DNA from: a virus
Taxonomy: Duplodnaviria > Caudoviricetes
IMG/VR virus record: IMGVR_UViG_643692013_000008
Coordinates: 1 to 64,000 of that record
DNA: 64,000 bases
Strand: one strand, 5' to 3'
How positions within the stretch are numbered: the stretch's first letter is position 1; each line of letters starts with the position of its first letter. Below are positions 2,374-11,727 of the stretch, piece by piece. The translations under genes were made by a program, and so were the position numbers. A model generated the notes under the pieces. It did not search any database and was not told the DNA's origin. It saw only the letters and a program-made list of their open reading frames with translations.

Positions 2374-3165
2374 CTAGAACAGCCCCGCCGGCTCCGCCGA
2401 CACATCCCAGCTGAAGACGATCAACTCCCGCCGAGGCACCGAGCGGCCGCCCCCGCTCACCGTGTACTCGATGTCGACCGTCTCGACATGGAAGCCGTCG
2501 AAGATCCGGCGGGTCTCGGGATGGTCGTTCACGCTGAGAATGGCCTTCCCCTTCAAGGCGCGCATGCGGTCTGCGACCGCCCCGTACTCGCTCACGGGAA
2601 ACGGGACGCCATACCCCGTCATCTCGAGATACGGAGGGTCCATGTAGAAAAACGTGTGGCCGCGATCGTACCGATCGACGCAATCCCGCCAGTCCAGTTG
2701 CTCGATGCAGGTCGCCGCCAGCCGGAGATGGGCAGACGACAGCGTCTCCTCAATCCGCCACAGGTTAAGCCCAGGCGGCGACGTTGTGGACGTGCCGAAC
2801 GTCTGCCCTTCCACCTTGCCGCCGAAGCACAGCTGCTGCAAGTAGAAGAACCTGGCCGCTCGCTGGATATCCGTCAGCGTCTCGGGTGGCGTCTTCTGCT
2901 GCCACTCGAACATCGCCCGACTGCTCAGCGCCCACCTGAACTGCCGGACGAACTCCTCGGGGTGGACCTTGACCACCCGGTACAGGTTCACCAACTCGCC
3001 GTTGACGTCGTTGATGATCTCAACGTTCGCGGGCGGCCGCATGAAGTACAACGCGGCCCCGCCAGCAAACACCTCTACATAGCACTCGTGACGCGGAAAC
3101 CGCGGTATGAGCTGATCCGCGAGACGGCGCTTTCCGCCGATCCAGGGAATGATAGGTAAAGCCAT
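2374..3165 (-). CDS. DNA adenine methyltransferase (D12/Dam class)
   Basis: WIGGK, EVFAGGA, NDVN and DPPY motifs; GGAGG RBS. Confidence 0.93.
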   Translation of the reverse strand: MALPIIPWIGGKRRLADQLIPRFPRHECYVEVFAGGAALYFMRPPANVEIINDVNGELVNLYRVVKVHPEEFVRQFRWALSSRAMFEWQQKTPPETLTDIQRAARFFYLQQLCFGGKVEGQTFGTSTTSPPGLNLWRIEETLSSAHLRLAATCIEQLDWRDCVDRYDRGHTFFYMDPPYLEMTGYGVPFPVSEYGAVADRMRALKGKAILSVNDHPETRRIFDGFHVETVDIEYTVSGGGRSVPRRELIVFSWDVSAEPAGLF

Positions 3166-3199
3166 CCGTGACAAACCTCCGATTATTGCTACAATCGGC

Positions 3200-3298
3200 C
3201 CGCCCCCCGGGGGTGGCAGGGCCTTGGCCTGTCACTGGCGCGTTCAGTGATGGGTGGCCACATCGGTGCTGCAACACCGATGCCGGTCGCCCTGTCTT
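3200..3298 (+). ncRNA. Candidate structured small RNA divergent from dam
   Basis: Extended -10 TGCTACAAT (3187-3195), then three stacked hairpins ending in a G-U-containing long stem (3252-3292). Confidence 0.4.
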
Positions 3299-3307
3299 AC
3301 AACTCCC

Positions 3308-4111
3308 TCACGGCATCGCCGCGAGGCTCCTGCTGGTTTCCCTGTACCCGTCGTCGAAGAGCCGCTGCCGGACGGCGGGCGCCATATCTCGGTCGAACGA
3401 GCTCGCGTAGCCGGTCGGCACGCTGACGATCATCGCCCCGCTCTGCTCGTCCGCCGCCATCCTGGCCGCCTCGTTGGACGCCAGCATGAGGTCGATCACC
3501 CGCGACGCGATCGTGCGCAGCCCGTAACGGCCTGGCGCGAGCGGGGCGTCATCGGACCTCAGGAACACGCCCAGACGCGGCACCTCATCCACGGTCAGAT
3601 CGCTCACGGGGATGTTGTCGGCCGTGCCGCCGTCGACGAGCAGCGCGCCAGCGGCGGCCACGGGCGGAAAGACGAACGGAATCGACGCGCTCGCCCGGGC
3701 CGCGAGCGCGATCGGCACTGCCGGCGTCGTGGCGCGCGACAGCTGGAATTCGCGCTCCGTCAGAAGATCGGCCGCAACGATCTTCAATCCGACGTCGATC
3801 TGGTCGAACGTCCGCCCTCCCGTCTGCTGCATGAGGAACGCCAGCATCTCGTCGCCGCTGCAGAGCGCGTTGACCCGGATTACAGACCAGGCCGAGAACC
3901 GCATCATCGGTGACCAGTCGACCGACATGCAGAGTGTGTGCATGTCGGCCAGCGACATGCCGCTGGCGTAGAGCGCAGCGACGATCGAGCCGCCCGACGT
4001 GCCGGCGAGCTCGACGACCTCATACCCGGCATCGGCAACCGCCTGCAGCGCACCGAGGTGCGCCGACAGGCGGAAGCCCGAGCCGCTCAAGGCAACTCGG
4101 ATCTGCTTCAT
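3308..4111 (-). CDS. Patatin-like phospholipase
   Basis: SGSGFR oxyanion loop, GTSGG (GxSxG) nucleophile, ASASIP and DGG motifs; ATGA-coupled to the upstream lipoprotein. Confidence 0.92.
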   Translation of the reverse strand: MKQIRVALSGSGFRLSAHLGALQAVADAGYEVVELAGTSGGSIVAALYASGMSLADMHTLCMSVDWSPMMRFSAWSVIRVNALCSGDEMLAFLMQQTGGRTFDQIDVGLKIVAADLLTEREFQLSRATTPAVPIALAARASASIPFVFPPVAAAGALLVDGGTADNIPVSDLTVDEVPRLGVFLRSDDAPLAPGRYGLRTIASRVIDLMLASNEAARMAADEQSGAMIVSVPTGYASSFDRDMAPAVRQRLFDDGYRETSRSLAAMP

Positions 4112-4587
4112 TGCGCGGCCGCCGAGCTAGCCGGCACTGCTTCGCTGGCCGACGCGGGGGGCGCCGTAGCGGCCGCAGTCGTCGCCGACGCCTGGCCGTA
4201 GACCGACAGGGCCTGCGTAACCGACAGTTGCAGCACCCCGAGTGCCGCGATCGCGATCGGCTTCTGGTTGTCCGGGATCAGCTTCGACGCGAGCACGGCC
4301 GTCTCGATCGCCGGGATGCCGGTGCCGATCAGGGCCTGGGCGGAGGTCACCGTAATCGACGTTGCGGCCGTGCAGAACAGCCCGTTCGCGGCCGCCGCGG
4401 CCGAGACGGCCGGGTCGATCGCGGCCACTGCCACGAGCGTCGGCTGCACCACCGTGCAGCCGTTCTTCACAGCGGTCTGGAGCGTCGCCAGCGCGCCGGC
4501 AACGGATTGCTGGGAGGCGGTCGAGCAACCGGCCAGGGATGCGACGGCCAGCACTGCGCCTGCCGCGAGCAGCATGAGCTTCTTCAT
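4108..4587 (-). CDS. Lipoprotein, possible unimolecular spanin
   Basis: MKK + hydrophobic core + LAGC lipobox, Ser at +2; hydrophobic segment near the C-terminus; 159 aa. Confidence 0.75.
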   Translation of the reverse strand: MKKLMLLAAGAVLAVASLAGCSTASQQSVAGALATLQTAVKNGCTVVQPTLVAVAAIDPAVSAAAAANGLFCTAATSITVTSAQALIGTGIPAIETAVLASKLIPDNQKPIAIAALGVLQLSVTQALSVYGQASATTAAATAPPASASEAVPASSAAAQ

Positions 4588-4660
4588 GGTTAGTACCTTC
4601 GGGAATGCCGCGAGCGCGGCGGGTGGGAAAAGCGTGGGTGCGTGGACGTCAGATGAGGCG

Positions 4661-4984
4661 TTACTGCAGGGTGGGCACCGGCGGCCGGCCAGTGGGCGCC
4701 GACGCCGAGGCCTGATCCGATGCGCCGCTCTGCGGTACCGCGACAGCGACCGATATCCCGGGCGAGGGCTTGATATCGACGGCGTCCGAAGTCGGGGGCG
4801 CCCCGGGCGAGGATGCGCCGCTGTCGCCTGCCCCCCGTCCCTGGGAAACGTGCTTACCCAGGAAGGTGAGGCCCGCGGCCAAGGCCGCGACGTAGCCTGG
4901 CGCATCCGCCTTACCCATCAGGACGAGCGCGCCCCACGCCCCATACAGCAGCACTGCACCAACAAAAACCAGCAGCATGTACAT
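4661..4984 (-). CDS. Small two-TM membrane protein (holin/antiholin-like)
   Basis: GGAGG RBS; two hydrophobic segments, then a Pro/Ser/Ala-rich tail. Confidence 0.65.
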   Translation of the reverse strand: MYMLLVFVGAVLLYGAWGALVLMGKADAPGYVAALAAGLTFLGKHVSQGRGAGDSGASSPGAPPTSDAVDIKPSPGISVAVAVPQSGASDQASASAPTGRPPVPTLQ

Positions 4985-4998
4985 CCGAACCTCCGGCA

Positions 4999-5024
4999 TA
5001 AAAAAAGGCCGCTCGCGGCGGCCG
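4999..5024 (-). terminator. Intrinsic terminator after endolysin
   Basis: GGCCGC-stem hairpin followed by T7 on the minus strand. Confidence 0.7.
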
Positions 5025-5045: not shown

Positions 5046-5501
5046 TTAGCCGTCGAGCGCGCTCAGGTTGTGCGACTTGATGATGGCGATGATCTTCGCC
5101 GCATAGTTCGGGTCGGTGGCGTAGCCAGCCGCCGCGACTGCGGTCGCGAACGTCGTGCCGCTGGTGTACGCGAATGCGGCGGCGTAGCGGGGATTGACGA
5201 TCAGGAACTGTGCGTGATCGTTGAGGCTCGCGAGCCAGTCGGAATAGACGCGCCACCTGGCTGTCACGGTGGTCGGCTTCCCCGCCACGTACTCGGTCGT
5301 GGGCAGCATGACCGTCGGCCCCTTCCACGAGCCGTCTGCCTTCACCCCAAACAGGTTGAAGTAGCGCTGGGCGAGCTGCGAGGAAGCCCACCCGGACTCG
5401 AGCGCGGCCTGCGCAACAACGAAGCTCGCCGGGATCTTGGTGGACGTCGCCAGTTGGCACGCCGCCGGCGAGATCGCGTTGATGAAGTCATTCGGTGTCA
5501 T
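5046..5501 (-). CDS. Endolysin, GH73 (FlgJ-like glucosaminidase/muramidase)
   Basis: AQAALESGW, NLFGVKA and GYATDPNY motifs. Confidence 0.92.
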   Translation of the reverse strand: MTPNDFINAISPAACQLATSTKIPASFVVAQAALESGWASSQLAQRYFNLFGVKADGSWKGPTVMLPTTEYVAGKPTTVTARWRVYSDWLASLNDHAQFLIVNPRYAAAFAYTSGTTFATAVAAAGYATDPNYAAKIIAIIKSHNLSALDG

Positions 5502-5503
5502 GG

Positions 5504-5911
5504 TCACCCCAAGAGGAACGTGAAGGCCGCATGCGCCCAGTCGGGCACCGGCTCGTGATGCAGGTAGCGATAAATGACGATGGCGACCAGCGTGAACGCG
5601 GCCAGTTGCCCGACCACGTTGCGCATCAGAAATCGCCATGCATCGGCAATCCGGCAGAGCGCACGCATCACCTTCTGACCGCCCTGCCACGTCTCGACCA
5701 TGGACTGCGTATTGGCCACGACGGTGTCGAGCTTTCCGTCTTGTATCCGGAGGTGTTCGTCCTGCTGCCGAAGGTGTGCGTCCTGGCGCTCGAGGTGACT
5801 CCTGACCTGCGCCTCCATCTGGTTCATTCGTGCTTCCAACTTCGAGAAGCGGCGGTCTCCGCTGCGCAGTCGCTCCTCGACGCCAGCGTTGGTCGATCTT
5901 TGTTCAGGCAT
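5504..5911 (-). CDS. Putative holin (coiled coil + C-terminal TM)
   Basis: Directly upstream of endolysin; hydrophobic VVGQLAAFTLVAIVIY segment. Confidence 0.6.
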   Translation of the reverse strand: MPEQRSTNAGVEERLRSGDRRFSKLEARMNQMEAQVRSHLERQDAHLRQQDEHLRIQDGKLDTVVANTQSMVETWQGGQKVMRALCRIADAWRFLMRNVVGQLAAFTLVAIVIYRYLHHEPVPDWAHAAFTFLLG

Positions 5912-5941: not shown

Positions 5942-7912
5942 TCAGGTTCCAGTGCAAACGAACTGCACGACGTCGGTTCCGGTGCCGCTCAAAGCGAACG
6001 AGGTGCCGGAGGTTTGTGAGATGCGCACCGCGTTGGTAGCGGTCGTGTCGGTGGCCGTGCATGCATAGCTGGTCGACGAGGTATAGGCAGCTGCGCCCGA
6101 GAGCGTGACCGTGGCCGCGCCCGAGGCGAGTGTCGCCGTCCCCTTCACCATGTGCGGCGCGTTGGCGGCCGCGCCGGAGGTCGAATACAACGGCATCGCG
6201 CCGGTGCCGGTCGCGGCCAGGTTCCCGTAGACGGCGGCCGAGCCTCCAACCTGCAGCTTGTTAGTGCCGTCGTCCGTGCCGCCGACGAGCAGGCGGCCGC
6301 CGTATTTGGTGAGATTGATGTTGAACTTCGTCCCGGCTGACGCCGTGTTGTATGCCTCGACCGCGAGCTCGGATGCGGTGTCGGAATAGAAGCTCGCCGT
6401 GGCCGAGTTGCTCAGCTTCATCTGCACCGCGCCGCCGCCCTTGGGACTGAGCGTCACGGGAATCGTGGCGTCCGAGCCGATGGCGGCCAGCGCTGGCGAC
6501 GAGCCGGCCGCAGCACTCATCGAGCTCAACGAGTTGCCGCTGTTCACGGACTGGTAGAAGCTTCCCGATCCGGTGAGATTGAACGGCGCGGAGTAGTTCG
6601 ATGCGCTGTCGAGCTGCGCGCCGAAGATCTGGTTTCCGGCAGCGCCGTTGATCTCGGCGACGCACGATGTTGCGTTCGTCACCCCGTATGTCTGGCAGCC
6701 GAGCCCCATGGCGGTATTGTTCGACGAGCCATCCAGCACGAGGCCGCGCTGAAGGCTGTTGATCGACTCGATCCACGTCGATGCGATACGCGTGTATGCG
6801 GAGTTCTTGATGTACAAGACGTCGCCGAGCGCGTTGTCGATCGTGTTGCCAAAGAACCCGAAGTCGTTGTTGTTCCCTGCCAGGCGCACGACGTTGATCG
6901 ACGCGTTGTAGGGATGCGAGTTCTGGATCATCGTGGTCTGCGCGCCGGGGTTGGCGTAGATGCAGTAGTTCACGACGAACCCGCCGTTCATGATGAAGCC
7001 GTCGATCGTCGAGTCGGATGCGAACGCCCCCAACTCGATCCCGGCCTTGCCGGCAGTCGTCGAGTAGATGCGGATGTTCTTCAGCCGCACGTCGTGCATG
7101 TAGACCGACGTCGTCGGGTTGCCGTCGATCTTGATCGACGAATAGCCGGCCGGGACATTGTTGAAGGCCAGGTTCAGCAGGTCGAGCGTCTGCGCGAACG
7201 TGGTGTCGAGCGTGTTCGCGGTGCCGGCGGTGCCGTCGAACTTCAGATCACGGATCGTCGAGTGCGAGTCGAACGTGAAGGCGCCCGCGATCGCCGGATA
7301 GCTGATCGAGCCGCCCGTCTGGATCAGGACACTGTTCGGGCCGTCTCCGTAGAGCGTGAATCCGACGGTCTGCGGCAAGACCAGGCCGCTCTCGCGATAC
7401 TGGCCCGCCGGGATATAGACGGTCTTCGCTCCCGAGTTCAGCGCGGCCTGGATGCAGGCCGTGCTATCGGCTACACCGGTTTTGTCGCAGCCCGGGAAGT
7501 CGAGGATGCTCACCACGTCGCTCAGCTTGCTTGCGACCGAGCGGCCGCCGGCGCCGGACAGCGATGCCTGGAACTGCAGATTGCCGGTCGCGCCCAGCGC
7601 CGTGGTCGCGCCGGTGCCGCCCGAGGCAAACGAAAGAGGCGTCGAGAACGAAACGCTCCCCGTACTGGTCAACGTCGCGAAATTGCCGGTCGAGAAGTTG
7701 CCCGTCGCAAACGACGCCGTGGTGCCGTTGAGCGGCCCCGTGAGGGTTCCACCCGCCACCGGCAATGCGTTTGCGGCAACGCGGCTGAATGCCGTGTTCA
7801 ACTGCTCCGCGGTCAGCACCTGGCCAGGAACAAACTGCCCCATCGCGAGATGGGGCGCACAGACGGCTACCAGCGAGACCGCGAGCAGCAGCGTTTTGAA
7901 AATGCGATTCAT
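5942..7912 (-). CDS. Tailspike-like right-handed beta-helix glycanase with N-terminal signal peptide
   Basis: VSILDF..D.TG..DST..IQAA pectate-lyase-3-type cap, N/G/I-rich rungs, fibre motifs GGTLTGPL and GGTGATT; GAGGA RBS. Confidence 0.85.
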   Translation of the reverse strand: MNRIFKTLLLAVSLVAVCAPHLAMGQFVPGQVLTAEQLNTAFSRVAANALPVAGGTLTGPLNGTTASFATGNFSTGNFATLTSTGSVSFSTPLSFASGGTGATTALGATGNLQFQASLSGAGGRSVASKLSDVVSILDFPGCDKTGVADSTACIQAALNSGAKTVYIPAGQYRESGLVLPQTVGFTLYGDGPNSVLIQTGGSISYPAIAGAFTFDSHSTIRDLKFDGTAGTANTLDTTFAQTLDLLNLAFNNVPAGYSSIKIDGNPTTSVYMHDVRLKNIRIYSTTAGKAGIELGAFASDSTIDGFIMNGGFVVNYCIYANPGAQTTMIQNSHPYNASINVVRLAGNNNDFGFFGNTIDNALGDVLYIKNSAYTRIASTWIESINSLQRGLVLDGSSNNTAMGLGCQTYGVTNATSCVAEINGAAGNQIFGAQLDSASNYSAPFNLTGSGSFYQSVNSGNSLSSMSAAAGSSPALAAIGSDATIPVTLSPKGGGAVQMKLSNSATASFYSDTASELAVEAYNTASAGTKFNINLTKYGGRLLVGGTDDGTNKLQVGGSAAVYGNLAATGTGAMPLYSTSGAAANAPHMVKGTATLASGAATVTLSGAAAYTSSTSYACTATDTTATNAVRISQTSGTSFALSGTGTDVVQFVCTGT

Positions 7913-7927: not shown

Positions 7928-8143
7928 TCAGTTCGACGACGTCGGCGCCACATTGGTCAAGCTGCCGTTCACGACATACCAGCGCTGCCCGTCGTTCGGG
8001 TGCCAGTCAGCGTCGTCGGTGATGGGCAGCATCTGGGACTCCGGGAAAGCCTTGAGCGGATCCTCTGCGTAGCCGTAGGCCTCGGTGTCGATCCAGCCCA
8101 ACACCGCCTTCACCTGCGCGTCGAAATATGCGTATCGAGCCAT
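7928..8143 (-). CDS. Tail fibre assembly/chaperone-like protein
   Basis: Small acidic ORF right after the fibre gene. Confidence 0.6.
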   Translation of the reverse strand: MARYAYFDAQVKAVLGWIDTEAYGYAEDPLKAFPESQMLPITDDADWHPNDGQRWYVVNGSLTNVAPTSSN

Positions 8144-8148
8144 CGTGA

Positions 8149-9789
8149 TCACCATTCAATGAGCATGAAACCGGGCATGCCGGGCGTACCGACGGAGCCG
8201 TTAGTGGTCCCCGTCGTAGTGGTCGGGCCATACGACCCACCCGCGCCGGAGCCGCCGACGCCGTAGCCATAGGAAGCGGACGGGGCGATCAGGTTGGCGA
8301 CGCCGCCAATCGCGCCGCGGCCGGGCGCTCCGCTCGCGCCGAACGGGCCGCCGCCACCGCGGCCACCCGTCGCGCCAGGTCCGTACTGGGACGTGTCTTG
8401 GCCGTATTCGCCGTTCGGGAATCCGTTGCCGCCGGGTTGGCCGGGCCATGCCTGCGTCGGCGCGCCGCTGCTCCCCACTTGGCCACCTGCACCCGCGGGC
8501 AGCACGTCAGATCCCACCGAGGTGTTGCTCCCGTTGCCACCGGTGCCCCCGACGGCGCCGGCTACGCCGCCAGCTCCGATCACGATCGGAACGACCTGGC
8601 CAGGTGTCACCGACATTGGGTTTCGGATCCACGATCGACCGGCACCACCACCAGCAGAACCGGCGACGATGTTGTTGGCGGGGATGTTCGGCGATCCGGC
8701 GCCACCTCCCCCACCGGCACAGCCAGTTCGATAGATCGTCGTCACCCCGGGCGGCACGGTGAAGTTGCCGCTCGATGTAAAAATCTGGAAGCGCGGTGCT
8801 CCCAACTGCACACTGCCAGTACAGGTGATCAGCACGTACGAGGAAATGTCGGCACGCCAGAGCAGCAGCGCACGACCGCCCGCGGCGAGCTCGCCGCCCG
8901 TGAGAGCACTCTGGGAAACGCCGACGATGGGCGCAGCCGCGATTACGCCCGGGTTGGGGGTGAAGGTCGCCGCCCCGGTATTCGTGTTCGCCACCTTCAC
9001 CCAGAAGGCCTGGTTGTCGGTGAGAGTCGTAGACGGAACGGGGAAATTCGCCTGCAGCGTGTTGACCGCGCCAACGTCGGTGCCGAAGTTGAGGTTGCCG
9101 GTCTGAACCGATTGAAGAAGGCCGCTCGGCAGAATCGGCGCGCCCGAGTACTGGGCGATGTTCGCCGACGTGATCGAGGTTTGGCCGAACGCGACAGTGA
9201 TCACCCAAAGGCCCACCCAGCCGGTGTCCGGCGACGGCGTCGCCTGGGTCCCGCTCGTCGCAGGGATCCCGGCCTTCACCTGAAATGCGACCACTCCATC
9301 GCGGAATGTGTTGCTCGTCGCACCCGTATTACCGGGCCCTGACCACGGGGTCGCCGGGTTCGCGGCGTTGTAGAACTGCAGCACCACCGGAGCGTTCCCG
9401 GTGGTCGGATCAAGGCTGATATCGCTGTCCTGATACTGCGCCTCGATCAGGTAGCTGATCGACTGCCCGCTCGTACCGGGCGGCGCAAACGCCGAGCTGA
9501 TGTACGTTTCGAGCTGAATGCCCTGTTTGAGGATCTGATCGGTCGTGTCGGCCGGCAACGTGCCGCACGTGGTCGCTTCCAGGTTCTCGAGTTGGTAGAT
9601 CTCGCCCTTCCCGATTTGGACAGTCATGCCGGCCGGCGATGTCGGGGTGCACGCAAGCCCCTGCACGACGGTGTTGGTGCCGAGCACCGCCGAGCTGAGC
9701 TTCGCCAGCCCCACCATGGTTTGCTGCGCCTGAGCGGAGAATGTCCACTCGTAGACTTGCTGCCCGATATACGTTTCGATGCGACGCAT
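8149..9789 (-). CDS. Tail fibre protein with glycine-rich C-terminal domain
   Basis: Follows baseplate genes; FTSSGNFTVPPGVT..GGGGG glycine-rich signature. Confidence 0.85.
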   Translation of the reverse strand: MRRIETYIGQQVYEWTFSAQAQQTMVGLAKLSSAVLGTNTVVQGLACTPTSPAGMTVQIGKGEIYQLENLEATTCGTLPADTTDQILKQGIQLETYISSAFAPPGTSGQSISYLIEAQYQDSDISLDPTTGNAPVVLQFYNAANPATPWSGPGNTGATSNTFRDGVVAFQVKAGIPATSGTQATPSPDTGWVGLWVITVAFGQTSITSANIAQYSGAPILPSGLLQSVQTGNLNFGTDVGAVNTLQANFPVPSTTLTDNQAFWVKVANTNTGAATFTPNPGVIAAAPIVGVSQSALTGGELAAGGRALLLWRADISSYVLITCTGSVQLGAPRFQIFTSSGNFTVPPGVTTIYRTGCAGGGGGAGSPNIPANNIVAGSAGGGAGRSWIRNPMSVTPGQVVPIVIGAGGVAGAVGGTGGNGSNTSVGSDVLPAGAGGQVGSSGAPTQAWPGQPGGNGFPNGEYGQDTSQYGPGATGGRGGGGPFGASGAPGRGAIGGVANLIAPSASYGYGVGGSGAGGSYGPTTTTGTTNGSVGTPGMPGFMLIEW

Positions 9790-9806
9790 GTGATGGCCTG
9801 AAAATG

Positions 9807-9830
9807 AAAAAGCCCGCACGAGGCGGGCTT
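9807..9830 (-). terminator. Intrinsic terminator before the fibre gene
   Basis: AAGCCCGC...GCGGGCTTTTT hairpin. Confidence 0.7.
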
Positions 9831-9858: not shown

Positions 9859-10605
9859 TCAGTCGAGTGTTGATTGATCCAGTACGAAATTCGCGCCGAG
9901 CACCGGCGTGGGCACACCGAAGTTCGTGATGCACACGCCAATCTTCGTGGCCGCCGGCCGAGTCGCATTCACGGCGGCGAAAATGTCTGCATCCGTCGCC
10001 TGGGTGACTTCCTGGGTAAGGGAGCCAGTGTAGCCGTGCGACGTCGGTGCCGAGAGCGCGGACCACGTGGGCGCATTCGCGTAGGCGGCCCCCAATGAGC
10101 CGCCCGTCACCTGAGGTCGGTAGACCGTGATCAGGGCAGTGAACGGAGCCGCAATGGACCCCATCCGGGCCACGCCACAGAAGCTGTTCGGACCGGTGTT
10201 CGCACCGCAGCAACCCGTGTCGAGCGGCCGCGCGGGCTCAAAAATGACCGGGTGCCGCCCTGTTAATTGCGTGAGCACCGCATCCATAGCCGGCCGCGTT
10301 GCTCGCCGTTGGAACAACGTCAGCTTGATCCGTGCGATGTAGGAGGCGTCCGTTTCTCCCGCCTTGCGTAGCAGGCTGTCGCCGAAGAAGTCTGCCGCCC
10401 ACAGGTCGATCCAACCGCCAGTCGACGCCTGGAGCCTGGTTTGCGCCCATGCGAATTGCACGAGCAAGTAGATGGTCGAGAGCACTGCGGCGACTCCCGA
10501 CAGCACCGCGCTGATGATCGGTGCTTCCGCCCAGTCGCCGAACCACCCGCGCGGCATGTAAGACTTCAGCCGCGACAAGATATCTGTCGAATCTCCCGTT
10601 GCCAT
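9859..10605 (-). CDS. Baseplate wedge subunit (gpI/DUF2313-like)
   Basis: Position after baseplate J; WIDLWAADFFG..R..GETDASY..RI motif. Confidence 0.8.
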   Translation of the reverse strand: MATGDSTDILSRLKSYMPRGWFGDWAEAPIISAVLSGVAAVLSTIYLLVQFAWAQTRLQASTGGWIDLWAADFFGDSLLRKAGETDASYIARIKLTLFQRRATRPAMDAVLTQLTGRHPVIFEPARPLDTGCCGANTGPNSFCGVARMGSIAAPFTALITVYRPQVTGGSLGAAYANAPTWSALSAPTSHGYTGSLTQEVTQATDADIFAAVNATRPAATKIGVCITNFGVPTPVLGANFVLDQSTLD

Positions 10606-11727
10606 TCAGTTCACCGTGATGGTTCCAGGCATGACGCGCTGGGTGTTGGTGACCGTGATGTCGCTCGTGCCGCCGTTCAGCAGCACCCCGGTCACATTCG
10701 TGACGCCAGCGACGCCGTAAGCAATCGAGGCGAGGATGGTGTACGGAAGCGAGACGCCGTCGCCCAGGCCTTCGATGTAGGACGAGAGCGCAGCAGTCAC
10801 CTGCTCGACCGCGGTGGCGTGCGTCACGCCGGTTGTGGTGATAGCCATGGTCACGTTGGCGGTCACATCCTGCGGACCGTGCACGCTGTACGTCGAACAG
10901 AGCGGCCGCGCCACTTCAACCGCTGCACCGACAGCATCCAGCGTGCTGCTCGGCGGATCTCCCGTCCCGTCGTCCGTGATGACCGTGAAGTAGCCGTTCT
11001 GCGGCTGGCCGTTGTACTGCTGGTTCTCGAGGATCGTGCTCTTGACGTTCAGCGCGACGCTGTTGGCAGCCGCCTTCACTGCGGCCAGCGTGGCGCCCCC
11101 GATCGCAGCCACCCACAAGACGAACCGAGCGCGCGCTGCAGCGTCGGATTCGGCGTCGACGCCGTTCTGGACGGCCAACGAGTTTGAGACGAAATCGACG
11201 CCGGGAATCGCGGTGCCCAGCGTGTTCAGTGCCCCGGCGGAGACGTTCCCGATCGTGCCTGCAACCGTGCATTGCACCGTCACCGACACGCTCGCCTGGC
11301 CGGCCGGAATCACGTAGCCGCCTTGAGCCGCGCTGTATGCCGGATTGGTCGTATCGGCCACGACAGCGAACTGGACCGTGCCGTCGGCGGTCTGGACGAT
11401 ACCTCCAACCTCCACGAGCGCCTGACTCGTCGGCGTGAAGCGAGAAAACGTCTCCTGCGTCGTTGCAGCGTCCGCCGGCAACCGCGCGAAGCCGAATTGC
11501 GCGAACCAGCTATCCAGGTCAGCGCCTGTCGACGTCGAGGCCCGCGTCAGCGCCAACACCTGGAGCACCAGCCCTTGCAGCCAGAGCGCAACACCGCCGG
11601 TGGCCTCCGCAATGGCGAGCAGCACCGAGCCAACGGTGAAGTCGATGAGCTGCGACGCCGCCCCCTGAACCGCGGTGGCGAAGTTCTGAACGATCGTCGC
11701 GAACGACTGGGTAGACAGATTTGCCAT
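10606..11727 (-). CDS. Baseplate J/gp47 family protein
   Basis: GTIGNV, GVDAESDAAARAR and VAGVTNV motifs. Confidence 0.9.
   Translation of the reverse strand: MANLSTQSFATIVQNFATAVQGAASQLIDFTVGSVLLAIAEATGGVALWLQGLVLQVLALTRASTSTGADLDSWFAQFGFARLPADAATTQETFSRFTPTSQALVEVGGIVQTADGTVQFAVVADTTNPAYSAAQGGYVIPAGQASVSVTVQCTVAGTIGNVSAGALNTLGTAIPGVDFVSNSLAVQNGVDAESDAAARARFVLWVAAIGGATLAAVKAAANSVALNVKSTILENQQYNGQPQNGYFTVITDDGTGDPPSSTLDAVGAAVEVARPLCSTYSVHGPQDVTANVTMAITTTGVTHATAVEQVTAALSSYIEGLGDGVSLPYTILASIAYGVAGVTNVTGVLLNGGTSDITVTNTQRVMPGTITVN

What the first reader, a model, noticed from the sequence alone, without database searches (positions are those of the whole stretch)
5942..7912. Tailspike with a Sec signal peptide and paired cysteines: a phage spike built in the periplasm?
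Seen: the gene sits at the end of the tail operon and has fibre-type N-terminal motifs (GQVLTAEQLN, GGTLTGPL, GGTGATT) and a tailspike beta-helix. Yet it begins MNRIFK-TLLLAVSLVAVCAPHLAMG, a basic + hydrophobic + cleavage-type signal, behind a good GAGGA RBS. The mature part has three Cys pairs (PGC..11..AC, LGC..11..SC, YAC...VC at the C-terminus), as expected for disulfides. Known: virion proteins normally fold and assemble in the cytoplasm and lack signal peptides. Inference: the spike is exported and then either docks on virions during lysis or acts as a free or surface glycanase that strips host polysaccharide or receptor. An in-frame Met24 (7843) without an SD could also give a cytoplasmic isoform.
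Basis: partly seen in the sequence, partly recalled or inferred. Interest (0 to 1): 0.85.

Follow-up and report, generated by a model that had tools for sequence, protein, structure and literature searches.

The report
Phage tail spike with export signal
A Burkholderia prophage gene for a sugar-cutting, tail-spike-like protein begins with a bacterial secretion signal. All roughly 130 relatives I examined keep that signal, lytic phages included, so the protein very probably matures outside the cytoplasm where the virus particle is built. Whether it ever joins the particle is unknown.

Summary
Window 5942-7912(-) encodes a 656-aa protein with a 25-residue Sec-type signal, a tail-fibre N-terminal module, a high-confidence beta-helix (Z 34 to phi29 gp12, AlgE, RbmB) and a C-terminal domain. 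It has three Cys pairs.

In 47/47 database homologs and 85/85 viral contigs with a leader before the QFxxGQxLTAxxLN motif, that leader is 17-34 residues long, basic then hydrophobic, and mostly ends in small residues at -3/-1 (my own rule, no trained predictor). Met24 is not conserved.

The family is confined to Burkholderiaceae myophages. It includes isolated phages BgManors32, Bcep1, BcepNY3, Bcep781 and Bcep43, whose GenBank notes already say 'possible signal peptide domain'. The gene always lies inside tail modules. Its start overlaps the upstream gene's stop in 32 of 60 loci, and an ordinary signal-less fibre is present in every locus whose tail genes I could identify.

B. gladioli carries a chromosomal copy with the signal and enzyme but no fibre module.

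My odds:
- Export is well supported (about 0.8).
- It acts as a free exported depolymerase: about 0.5.
- It docks on virions at lysis: about 0.28.

This scan has flagged signal-bearing fibres before on other DNA, and once more in this same genome. I found no paper that explains them.

The parts
7838..7912 (-). Sec-type (SPase I) signal peptide, residues 1-25, predicted cleavage after A-M-G, before Q26
   Evidence: n-region +2, 13-residue hydrophobic core, small residues at -3/-1. The character is conserved in 47/47 homologs and in all 85 viral contigs with a leader. The sequence is not conserved.
7538..7837 (-). Tail-fibre N-terminal module, residues 26-125 (QFxPGQxLTAxxLN, GGTLTGPL, ASGGTGATTA)
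   Evidence: Invariant columns start at Q26. The module is joined to many different C-terminal domains. The same motif lies at the extreme N-terminus of signal-less tail proteins. pLDDT is low as a monomer.
6548..7537 (-). Right-handed beta-helix, putative polysaccharide depolymerase, residues 126-455, with Cys pairs C142/C153 and C406/C417
   Evidence: AF2 pLDDT is above 90 for residues 130-400 and 75-88 for 400-450. VIA Z is 34.2 to phi29 gp12, 34.1 to AlgE6 and 32.2 to RbmB and K5A lyase. Invariant D274, D300, H333, Y335, N336 and D359. phrog_4775 pre-neck appendage match.
6257..6547 (-). Ser/Ala/Gly-rich middle segment, residues 456-552, no confident fold
   Evidence: pLDDT under 50 for residues 458-586.
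5945..6256 (-). C-terminal domain, residues 553-656, with Cys pair C618/C653
   Evidence: phrog_32740 E 3e-34. 58% identity to the C-terminus of Bcep1/BcepNY3 gp51. The pair is kept in P0002-P0016 and in host homologs P0010-12.
8149..9819 (-). Ordinary signal-less tail fibre (556 aa, glycine-rich C-terminus)
   Evidence: phrog_863 and phrog_6202, Pfam PF21722. No hydrophobic N-terminus.
7928..8155 (-). 75-aa ORF between fibre and spike, possibly a fibre assembly factor
   Evidence: Position only. Counterparts are BgManors32 gp49 (76 aa) and a 64-aa ORF in L003. No family hit.
9859..11727 (-). Baseplate wedge genes (J-like 10606-11727; Wedge1-like 9859-10605)
   Evidence: phrog_6 E 2e-46 and phrog_26379 E 3e-57.
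5504..5911 (-). Holin-like ORF (135 aa, coiled-coil N-terminus, one C-terminal hydrophobic helix)
   Evidence: Hydropathy. Position before the endolysin, as in L002, L004 and BgManors32.
5046..5501 (-). Endolysin (FlgJ-type glucosaminidase), ATG 2 nt after the holin-like stop
   Evidence: NCBIfam TIGR02541 E 7e-45 over the muramidase part. Start read from the sequence.
5007..5023 (-). Terminator-like hairpin plus T-run that ends the late operon
   Evidence: No promoter-like site on the minus strand between 11000 and 5000.

Best explanation
The gene encodes a late-expressed accessory spike that is made as a Sec precursor.

Proposed steps, all inferred:
1. It is transcribed with the tail and lysis genes.
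2. It is translocated unfolded through SecYEG.
3. Signal peptidase I cuts it after A-M-G, which leaves the fibre motif at the new N-terminus.
4. It folds and trimerises in the oxidising periplasm with up to three disulfides: C142-C153, C406-C417 and C618-C653.

Its beta-helix groove then cleaves a host surface or exported polysaccharide, which may be O-antigen or exopolysaccharide. The substrate is unknown.

I commit to the reading that it works mainly unattached to the particle. It acts first on the infected cell's own envelope glycans and, once lysis releases it, on debris and neighbouring cells. Progeny would then be neither trapped nor wasted on debris. This resembles a receptor-destroying enzyme.

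What is shown: the signal-peptide features and their conservation, the fold, the gene position and the family's distribution. What is inferred: export, cleavage, disulfides, substrate and the free mode of action.

The gene is one member of a family specific to Burkholderiaceae myophages, both temperate and virulent.
For: Signal conservation:
- 47/47 homologs.
- 85 of the 98 viral contigs fetched by a motif pattern that ignores the leader. The other 13 are a different family of roughly 140-280-aa proteins with no leader.
- 19 Burkholderiaceae genomes.

Sequence conservation begins exactly at the predicted cleavage site.

Cys pairs:
- In the beta-helix tree, nearly all signal-bearing proteins fall in one clade (97/88 support, 21 of its 22 rows).
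- C142/C153 is Cys/Cys in 18 of the 23 signal-bearing rows, all within that clade.
- It is never Cys/Cys in the 14 signal-less rows, most of which have Ala/Ala.

The enzyme works without a virion:
- P0010-12 have signal plus enzyme but no fibre module (60-63% identity).
- P0010 lies in a B. gladioli chromosomal locus with no phage genes nearby and is common across strains.
- The P0010-12 clade nests among the signal-bearing phage-type relatives in the tree.
- A widespread B. glumae variant keeps the signal and the enzyme while its fibre motifs decay.

An ordinary signal-less fibre accompanies the gene in the 11 Mu-like and 14 Wedge1-type loci that reach far enough, and in Naesvirus, so the phage has an ordinary fibre without it.

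Late operon: no promoter-like site, and a terminator-like hairpin only after the endolysin.

The beta-helix fold is shared with secreted bacterial enzymes such as RbmB, AlgE and AlgG as well as with tailspikes.

Precedent from general knowledge: exported phage proteins encoded beside receptor-binding genes, such as T5 Llp and phi80 Cor. I know of no exported virion protein in a tailed phage.
Against: - A free enzyme has no obvious need for a roughly 100-residue fibre module, yet this one has 31 invariant positions across divergent members.
- Many family members are short (about 250-400 aa), too short for a full beta-helix like this one, though I did not scan them for domains.
- The start codon overlaps the stop of the upstream gene in 32 of 60 loci. 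That gene is often the last baseplate wedge gene. In one lineage the gene sits between baseplate genes. This is the behaviour of a structural gene.
- The same N-terminal motif heads signal-less tail proteins, once in the very same slot after the wedge gene (L077).
- No trained signal-peptide predictor, no expression data and no proteomics were available.
Confidence: 0.5

Rival explanations
1. Export-then-dock. The spike is a true virion appendage. It matures in the periplasm because it depends on disulfides. It binds the baseplate or the ordinary fibre through its conserved N-terminal module only when holin, endolysin and spanin action merges cytoplasm and periplasm.
For: - The conserved N-terminal module joined to swapped C-terminal domains is the hallmark of receptor-binding proteins.
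- Bcep1/BcepNY3 and Bcep781/Bcep43 are near-identical phages with the same signal and motif but different distal domains.
- ATGA coupling to the upstream gene occurs in 32 of 60 loci, and 16 loci place the gene directly after Wedge1 or Mu gp48, the classical fibre slot.
- The gene is present in strictly virulent Naesvirus phages, within the tail-gene region.
- The motif heads signal-less tail proteins, including L077 in the same slot.
Against: - I found no precedent for a Sec-exported virion part in tailed phages.
- The time window for docking at lysis is short.
- An ordinary fibre is always present too.
- Signal-plus-enzyme relatives and the decayed-module variant work without a virion.
- A later check of a similar claim elsewhere in this scan priced the bold reading at 10/100.
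Confidence: 0.28
2. The hydrophobic N-terminus is not used for export. The protein folds in the cytoplasm and joins the tail in the ordinary way, with the leader buried or removed by another protease.
For: - This is the textbook route for all known tail fibres.
- No experimental evidence of export exists, and no trained predictor was run here.
Against: - Selection keeps a positive n-region, a 10-14-residue core too short for a membrane anchor, and small residues at -3/-1 in about 130 proteins while the sequence drifts freely.
- Conservation starts exactly at the cleavage site.
- The Cys/Cys versus Ala/Ala split follows the leader.
Confidence: 0.08
3. Moron or lysogenic-conversion gene. It is an exported enzyme or adhesin expressed from the prophage that changes the lysogen's surface, for superinfection exclusion or host interaction, like lambda Lom/Bor or Cor.
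For: - In this prophage it sits at the tail/lysis boundary, near patatin and methylase cargo.
- Three RNA-seq runs of one organism hold 61-75% of its words. This is weak evidence, since the runs are kept as contigs and cannot show a level.
Against: - The gene is present in strictly virulent phages.
- It has no promoter or terminator of its own, and its G+C matches its neighbours.
- Half of the loci show translational coupling to structural genes.
Confidence: 0.07

Closest known systems
Bcep1 gp51, BcepNY3 gp51, Bcep781 gp49, Bcep43 gp48 and BgManors32 gp48 (Burkholderia myophages)
   Same: Same signal peptide plus N-terminal motif. BgManors32 gp48 is 89% identical over the full length, and Bcep1 gp51 shares the C-terminal domain at 58%. 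The GenBank notes read 'possible tail fiber; possible signal peptide domain'.
   Different: These are members of the same family, not an explanation. No function, localisation or virion proteomics is on record that I could find. The 2006 paper describing these phages (PMC1317576) is not held here.
Phage tailspike depolymerases (phi29 gp12, P22/Sf6/HK620 tailspikes, CBA120 TSP2/3, K5A lyase)
   Same: Right-handed beta-helix of the same size (Z 28-34, rmsd 2.7-3.2 over about 310-330 residues for those that align well), encoded in the tail module.
   Different: None of these is reported to carry a signal peptide, as far as I know. They fold in the cytoplasm and attach through N-terminal particle-binding domains. 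P0001 itself misses the Pfam PF12708 threshold.
Secreted or periplasmic bacterial beta-helix enzymes (V. cholerae RbmB, AlgE4/6, AlgG)
   Same: Sec signal plus beta-helix acting on the cell's own polysaccharide. Z is 32.0-32.2 to RbmB and 28.2-28.3 to AlgG. RbmB is reported as related to prophage tail proteins (PMC11451748). The host homolog P0010 has this architecture.
   Different: These lack a fibre module and are not encoded in phage tail operons. In Vibrio the prophage relatives lack signal peptides, whereas here the phage copy has one.
Exported phage proteins encoded next to receptor-binding genes (T5 Llp, phi80/N15 Cor, lambda Lom)
   Same: A phage-encoded signal-peptide protein beside the fibre genes that acts on the host's receptor or envelope, not in the particle (general knowledge).
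   Different: Those are small lipoproteins or outer-membrane proteins, expressed early or from the prophage. This one is a 65-kDa SPase I-type enzyme with a fibre module, late-expressed, and also found in virulent phages.

Membership tests
Sec / signal peptidase I signal peptide | Positively charged n-region, 7-15-residue hydrophobic core, small uncharged residues at -3 and -1 | tested here: met
   P0001 has +2 charge, a 13-residue core and A/G at -3/-1. The family shows A at -3 in 40/47 and A at -1 in 39/47. This is rule-based, with no trained predictor.
Sec / signal peptidase I signal peptide | Not a lipoprotein (no lipobox Cys at +1) and not Tat (no twin arginine) | tested here: met
   Residue +1 is Gln. 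C18 is preceded by Val and is not conserved. No RR motif is present.
Sec / signal peptidase I signal peptide | Actual translocation and cleavage | not testable with these tools
   Needs PhoA fusion, fractionation or N-terminal sequencing.
Beta-helix tailspike / polysaccharide depolymerase | Right-handed parallel beta-helix fold | tested here: met
   pLDDT above 90 for residues 130-400 and 75-88 for 400-450. Z 34 to phi29 gp12 and AlgE6.
Beta-helix tailspike / polysaccharide depolymerase | Pfam Pect-lyase_RHGA_epim (PF12708) or Beta_helix match | tested here: inconclusive
   P0001 has no Pfam hit at E 0.1. Homologs P0010, P0011, P0022-24 and P0074 do have one.
Beta-helix tailspike / polysaccharide depolymerase | Component of the virion | not testable with these tools
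   No proteomics found for any member.
Phage tail fibre N-terminal module (QFxxGQxLTAxxLN type) | Motif at the (mature) N-terminus, followed by GGTLTGPL-type repeats, encoded in a tail module | tested here: met
   Signal-less counterparts carry the motif 2-7 residues after the start.
Moron / lysogenic conversion gene (lambda Lom/Bor type) | Own promoter and terminator, deviant composition, restricted to temperate phages | tested here: not met
   No promoter-like site, G+C 0.64 like its neighbours, ATGA coupling in relatives, and present in virulent Naesvirus.
Receptor-blocking lipoproteins (T5 Llp, Cor) | Lipoprotein signal, small size | tested here: not met
   No lipobox, and the protein is 656 aa. 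Only the adjacency to fibre genes is shared.
SAR (signal-anchor-release) lysis proteins | Uncleaved weakly hydrophobic N-terminal helix on a muralytic enzyme | tested here: not met
   A cleavage-type c-region is present, and the fold is a glycan beta-helix, not a muramidase.

The most novel reading that the evidence does not exclude
Burkholderiaceae myophages build part of their host-recognition gear outside the cytoplasm. The signal-bearing fibre or spike is exported, cut by signal peptidase I so that the docking motif becomes the free N-terminus, and disulfide-bonded in the periplasm. It is attached to finished particles only in the seconds when lysis joins the two compartments. I found no description of such an assembly route for any tailed phage.
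Probability: 0.28. Interest if true: 0.9.

Novelty: new variant of a known kind. Interest (0 to 1): 0.68.

Why it matters
Textbook assembly of tailed phages is wholly cytoplasmic, and tail fibres and tailspikes are not expected to carry signal peptides.

Here the signal is obligatory on a tail-module protein across at least three tail lineages of Burkholderiaceae phages: Mu-like, Wedge1/E217-like and Naesvirus. These include cultured virulent phages, so the question can be tested directly at the bench.

Either answer would be informative:
- An exported, late-made enzyme with a fibre module that strips the dying cell's coat would be a new kind of phage release or receptor-destroying factor.
- A periplasm-matured virion appendage would be a new assembly route.

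There are practical consequences too:
- Recombinant production of such depolymerases for anti-Burkholderia use may need periplasmic, oxidative expression with the signal removed or replaced.
- Gene callers already mis-start some copies.
- The chromosomal signal-plus-enzyme copy in B. gladioli suggests exchange between phage spikes and host secreted glycanases.

Tried and rejected
Searches that gave nothing:
- Pfam and NCBIfam on P0001: no hit.
- ESM Atlas on residues 1-125: scores of 0.81 or less, uninformative.
- PDB sequence search with the mature N-terminus: nothing significant, only a fibre-repeat resemblance to 7z47 at E 1.5.
- The search for related loci with the N-terminal alignment: only 5 loci, because one pattern was too generic. 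I replaced it with a DNA pattern scan.

Data I could not reach:
- The RNA-run word shares were never laid and are no evidence of expression level.
- The 2006 paper on these phages (PMC1317576) is not held.
- Literature searches for signal peptides on tail fibres or tailspikes found no description. The nearest is Matrishin 2023 on Porphyromonas phages, which reports signals on capsid, spanin and unknown genes but not tail parts.

Ideas considered and dropped:
- Cysteine parity in 71 non-redundant mature proteins is 46 even, 25 odd and none with zero. This is only a weak bias.
- The Cys-pair/signal association rests on few evolutionary events, since there is essentially one signal-bearing clade. 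The Fisher p of 3e-5 overstates it.
- A membrane-embedded baseplate as docking site: the Wedge1-like protein here has a 27-residue hydrophobic stretch, but relatives lack it.
- Met24 as a conserved alternative start: rejected.
- Positional counterparts in Xanthomonas OP2 and Ralstonia PQ43W have no signal and are unrelated proteins.
Full report
**1. What is there**

Window 5942-7912(-) is a 656-aa ORF. It has five parts.

- Residues 1-25 form a classical Sec-type leader. There are two basic residues in the first six, a 13-residue hydrophobic core and a proline at -6. A at -3 and G at -1 precede Gln26. There is no lipobox and no twin arginine.
- Residues about 126-455 fold as a right-handed beta-helix. 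AF2 pLDDT is above 90 for 130-400 and 75-88 for 400-450.
- Residues 458-586 are not modelled with confidence (pLDDT under 50).
- Residues 553-656 match phrog_32740 (E 3e-34).

The beta-helix matches phi29 gp12 at Z 34.2, AlgE6 at 34.1, and RbmB and K5A lyase at 32.2. Sf6, CBA120 and HK620 tailspikes score 28-32. These rows are effectively tied. The fold is shared by phage tailspikes and by secreted bacterial polysaccharide enzymes.

The three Cys pairs are real: 142/153, 406/417 and 618/653. There is also a lone C317, and C18 lies inside the leader.

**2. Setting**

The host is a Burkholderia of the glumae/gladioli group. The window lies on an IMG/VR provirus record of 107.6 kb.

On the minus strand the order is:
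- baseplate J-like (10606-11727)
- Wedge1-like (9859-10605)
- an ordinary 556-aa fibre (8149-9819)
- a 75-aa ORF
- the spike
- a holin-like ORF (5504-5911)
- a FlgJ-type endolysin (5046-5501)
- a terminator-like hairpin (5007-5023)

No promoter-like site lies in between. The spike is therefore a late gene at the tail/lysis boundary.

The isolated phage BgManors32 has the same order, and its gp48 is 89% identical to the spike. A second copy, 82% identical, lies in the same arrangement at the other end of the record.

**3. The decisive test: is the leader conserved?**

Yes.

- All 47 database proteins that carry the N-terminal motif have a leader of 17-34 residues. Net charge is positive in 46 of the 47 (the exception is an over-long start call), and each has a strongly hydrophobic core. 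A is at -3 in 40 and at -1 in 39.
- An unbiased search used only the mature 100 residues against 1.84 billion representatives. In every hit that aligns from the motif, the match starts at residue 19-39 of the hit.
- A DNA pattern for the motif alone pulled 98 viral contigs. Eighty-five have such a leader.
- The other 13 contigs are a different family of proteins of roughly 140-280 aa. Ten are glycine-rich proteins of about 170 aa. The motif follows the start codon within a few residues and there is no leader.
- In one species-per-genome collection the leader-plus-motif form occurs only in Burkholderiaceae: Paraburkholderia, Burkholderia, Caballeronia, Trinickia and Pararobbsia. That is 19 of 32 hits. 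The rest are chance hits or signal-less forms.
- In a six-sequence alignment no column between M1 and Q26 is invariant, and 31 columns from Q26 onward are.

A leader whose sequence drifts while its character and end point are fixed is what real signal peptides look like. Met24 is present in only two homologs, so a conserved cytoplasmic isoform is not supported.

This is a rule-based reading. No trained predictor was available.

**4. Cysteines**

In 37 beta-helix homologs the 142/153 positions are Cys/Cys in 18 of 23 signal-bearing proteins and in none of the 14 signal-less ones. Ten of those 14 have Ala/Ala. C406 behaves likewise.

The tree of the beta-helix shows that nearly all signal-bearing proteins form one clade (97/88 support). 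The association therefore rests on few events and is suggestive only. Cysteine parity across 71 non-redundant family members is weakly even-biased, 46 to 25.

**5. The family and its gene positions**

Among 50,697 phage records the module occurs in BgManors32 and in the virulent Naesvirus phages Bcep1, BcepNY3, Bcep781 and Bcep43. The GenBank notes there already say 'possible tail fiber; possible signal peptide domain', so the feature was noticed about twenty years ago. I found no paper that explains it.

Bcep1 and Bcep781 carry the same leader and motif on different distal domains.

Across the viral contigs:
- The gene is always co-oriented inside a tail module.
- In 16 loci it directly follows Wedge1 or Mu gp48.
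- In one lineage it lies between a phrog_7986 protein and the baseplate J-like gene.
- In Naesvirus it lies in the tail-gene region, upstream of the chaperone and tape-measure genes.
- In 32 of 60 distinct loci its ATG overlaps the stop of the upstream gene, and in 16 more the gap is at most 30 nt.
- The 11 Mu-like loci and the 14 Wedge1-type loci that reach far enough also encode an ordinary signal-less fibre, either before or after it. So do the Naesvirus phages.

**6. Relatives without the fibre module**

P0010-12 have the signal, then directly the beta-helix and the C-terminal domain, at 60-63% identity. P0010 lies in a B. gladioli chromosomal locus with no phage genes nearby (ferritin, LysR and RecG on one side, UbiA on the other) and is common across strains.

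In the tree the P0010-12 clade nests among the signal-bearing phage-type relatives, and the fibre module was gained or lost at least four times.

A widespread B. glumae variant keeps the leader and enzyme, but its fibre motifs are degenerate. Some annotations start it at an internal Met. Signal-less tailspikes with canonical N-termini and a related beta-helix also exist in the same species (P0026, P0029, P0031).

**7. Reading**

Export is well supported. I put it at about 0.8. The destination is not shown.

For a free, exported enzyme:
- Every known exported protein of a tailed phage that I can name is non-virion (spanins, SAR endolysins, Llp, Cor, Lom). I know of no Sec-exported virion part in a tailed phage.
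- The enzyme clearly functions without a virion in the host copy and in the decayed-module variant.
- The phage has an ordinary fibre anyway.

For docking on the virion:
- The conserved N-terminal module is joined to swapped distal domains.
- The gene sits in the fibre slot and is translationally coupled to baseplate genes.
- It occurs in virulent phages.
- The same motif heads signal-less tail proteins. One of these (L077) lies in the identical slot after Wedge1. Another (L054) follows the tape measure.

Weighing a strong prior against this context evidence, I give:
- free or loosely associated exported depolymerase: 0.5
- export-then-dock: 0.28
- no export: 0.08
- moron-type conversion gene: 0.07

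A later check of a similar claim elsewhere in this scan priced the bold reading at 10/100. That made me more cautious, but it is not evidence about this locus.

**8. Novelty**

This is a new variant of a known kind: a tail-fibre/tailspike family with an obligatory Sec signal. It was flagged in old GenBank notes but is unexplained. The scan has noted signal-bearing fibres in other phage groups too. Those are unchecked AI notes and I do not count them as support.

The family includes cultured phages, so the question is directly testable.

Noticed in passing
G000:C1:103294-105252(+) = L014:15295-17259: A second copy of the spike (82% identity, 654 aa) lies at the other end of the 107.6-kb provirus record in inverted orientation. 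It has the same neighbours: J-like, 241 aa, 468-aa fibre, 76-aa ORF, spike, 130-aa holin-like. Its leader ends A-D-A, and three extra residues precede the motif. The record probably joins two related prophages.
   Followed up: partly
L005:8001-9734 (P0010, B. gladioli chromosome): A host chromosomal gene has the signal peptide plus the same beta-helix and C-terminal domain, but no fibre module. It lies between ferritin/LysR/RecG and a methyltransferase/UbiA, with no phage genes nearby, and is present in many B. gladioli strains. It may be a domesticated phage spike or the donor of the enzyme.
   Followed up: partly
P0102/P0106 (645 aa) and P0097-P0099 (613 aa), B. glumae: This widespread variant keeps the leader and enzyme, but its N-terminal fibre motifs are degenerate. 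Several annotations start it at an internal Met, which drops the leader.
   Followed up: no
window 9859-10605(-): The Wedge1-like baseplate protein has a 27-residue strongly hydrophobic stretch (residues 27-53) that ends in an AxA-Q-like junction. The counterparts in L004 and the Mu gp48 of L002 lack it.
   Followed up: partly
window 7837-7856(-): An 8-bp GC-rich hairpin lies inside the signal-peptide coding region and spans the cleavage-site codons and Met24. It has no T-run, so it is not a terminator. It might slow translation of the leader.
   Followed up: no
window 9810-9830(-): A good hairpin followed by a T-rich tail lies between the Wedge1-like gene and the ordinary fibre gene. It may act as a partial terminator or attenuator inside the tail operon.
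   Followed up: no
window 2374-4905(-): Cargo lies after the late-operon terminator. There is a lipoprotein-like ORF (LAGC lipobox, inside 4108-4905), a patatin-like phospholipase (3308-4111) and a Dam-type methyltransferase (2374-3174). Patatin also follows the lysis cassette in the relatives L002, L004, L055 and L058.
   Followed up: no
window 5046-5501(-) versus L002, L004 and BgManors32: The endolysin type is swapped. This prophage has a FlgJ-type glucosaminidase, whereas relatives with the same spike-holin arrangement carry a GH19 chitinase-like enzyme.
   Followed up: no
L054:3578-4102(-), L077, L085, L113 and nine others: Thirteen viral contigs encode signal-less proteins of roughly 140-280 aa, ten of them glycine-rich and about 170 aa. 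They carry the same motif a few residues after the start. In L054 the gene follows the tape measure and a 429-aa protein. In L077 it sits right after Wedge1. They look like the cytoplasmic counterparts of the module.
   Followed up: partly
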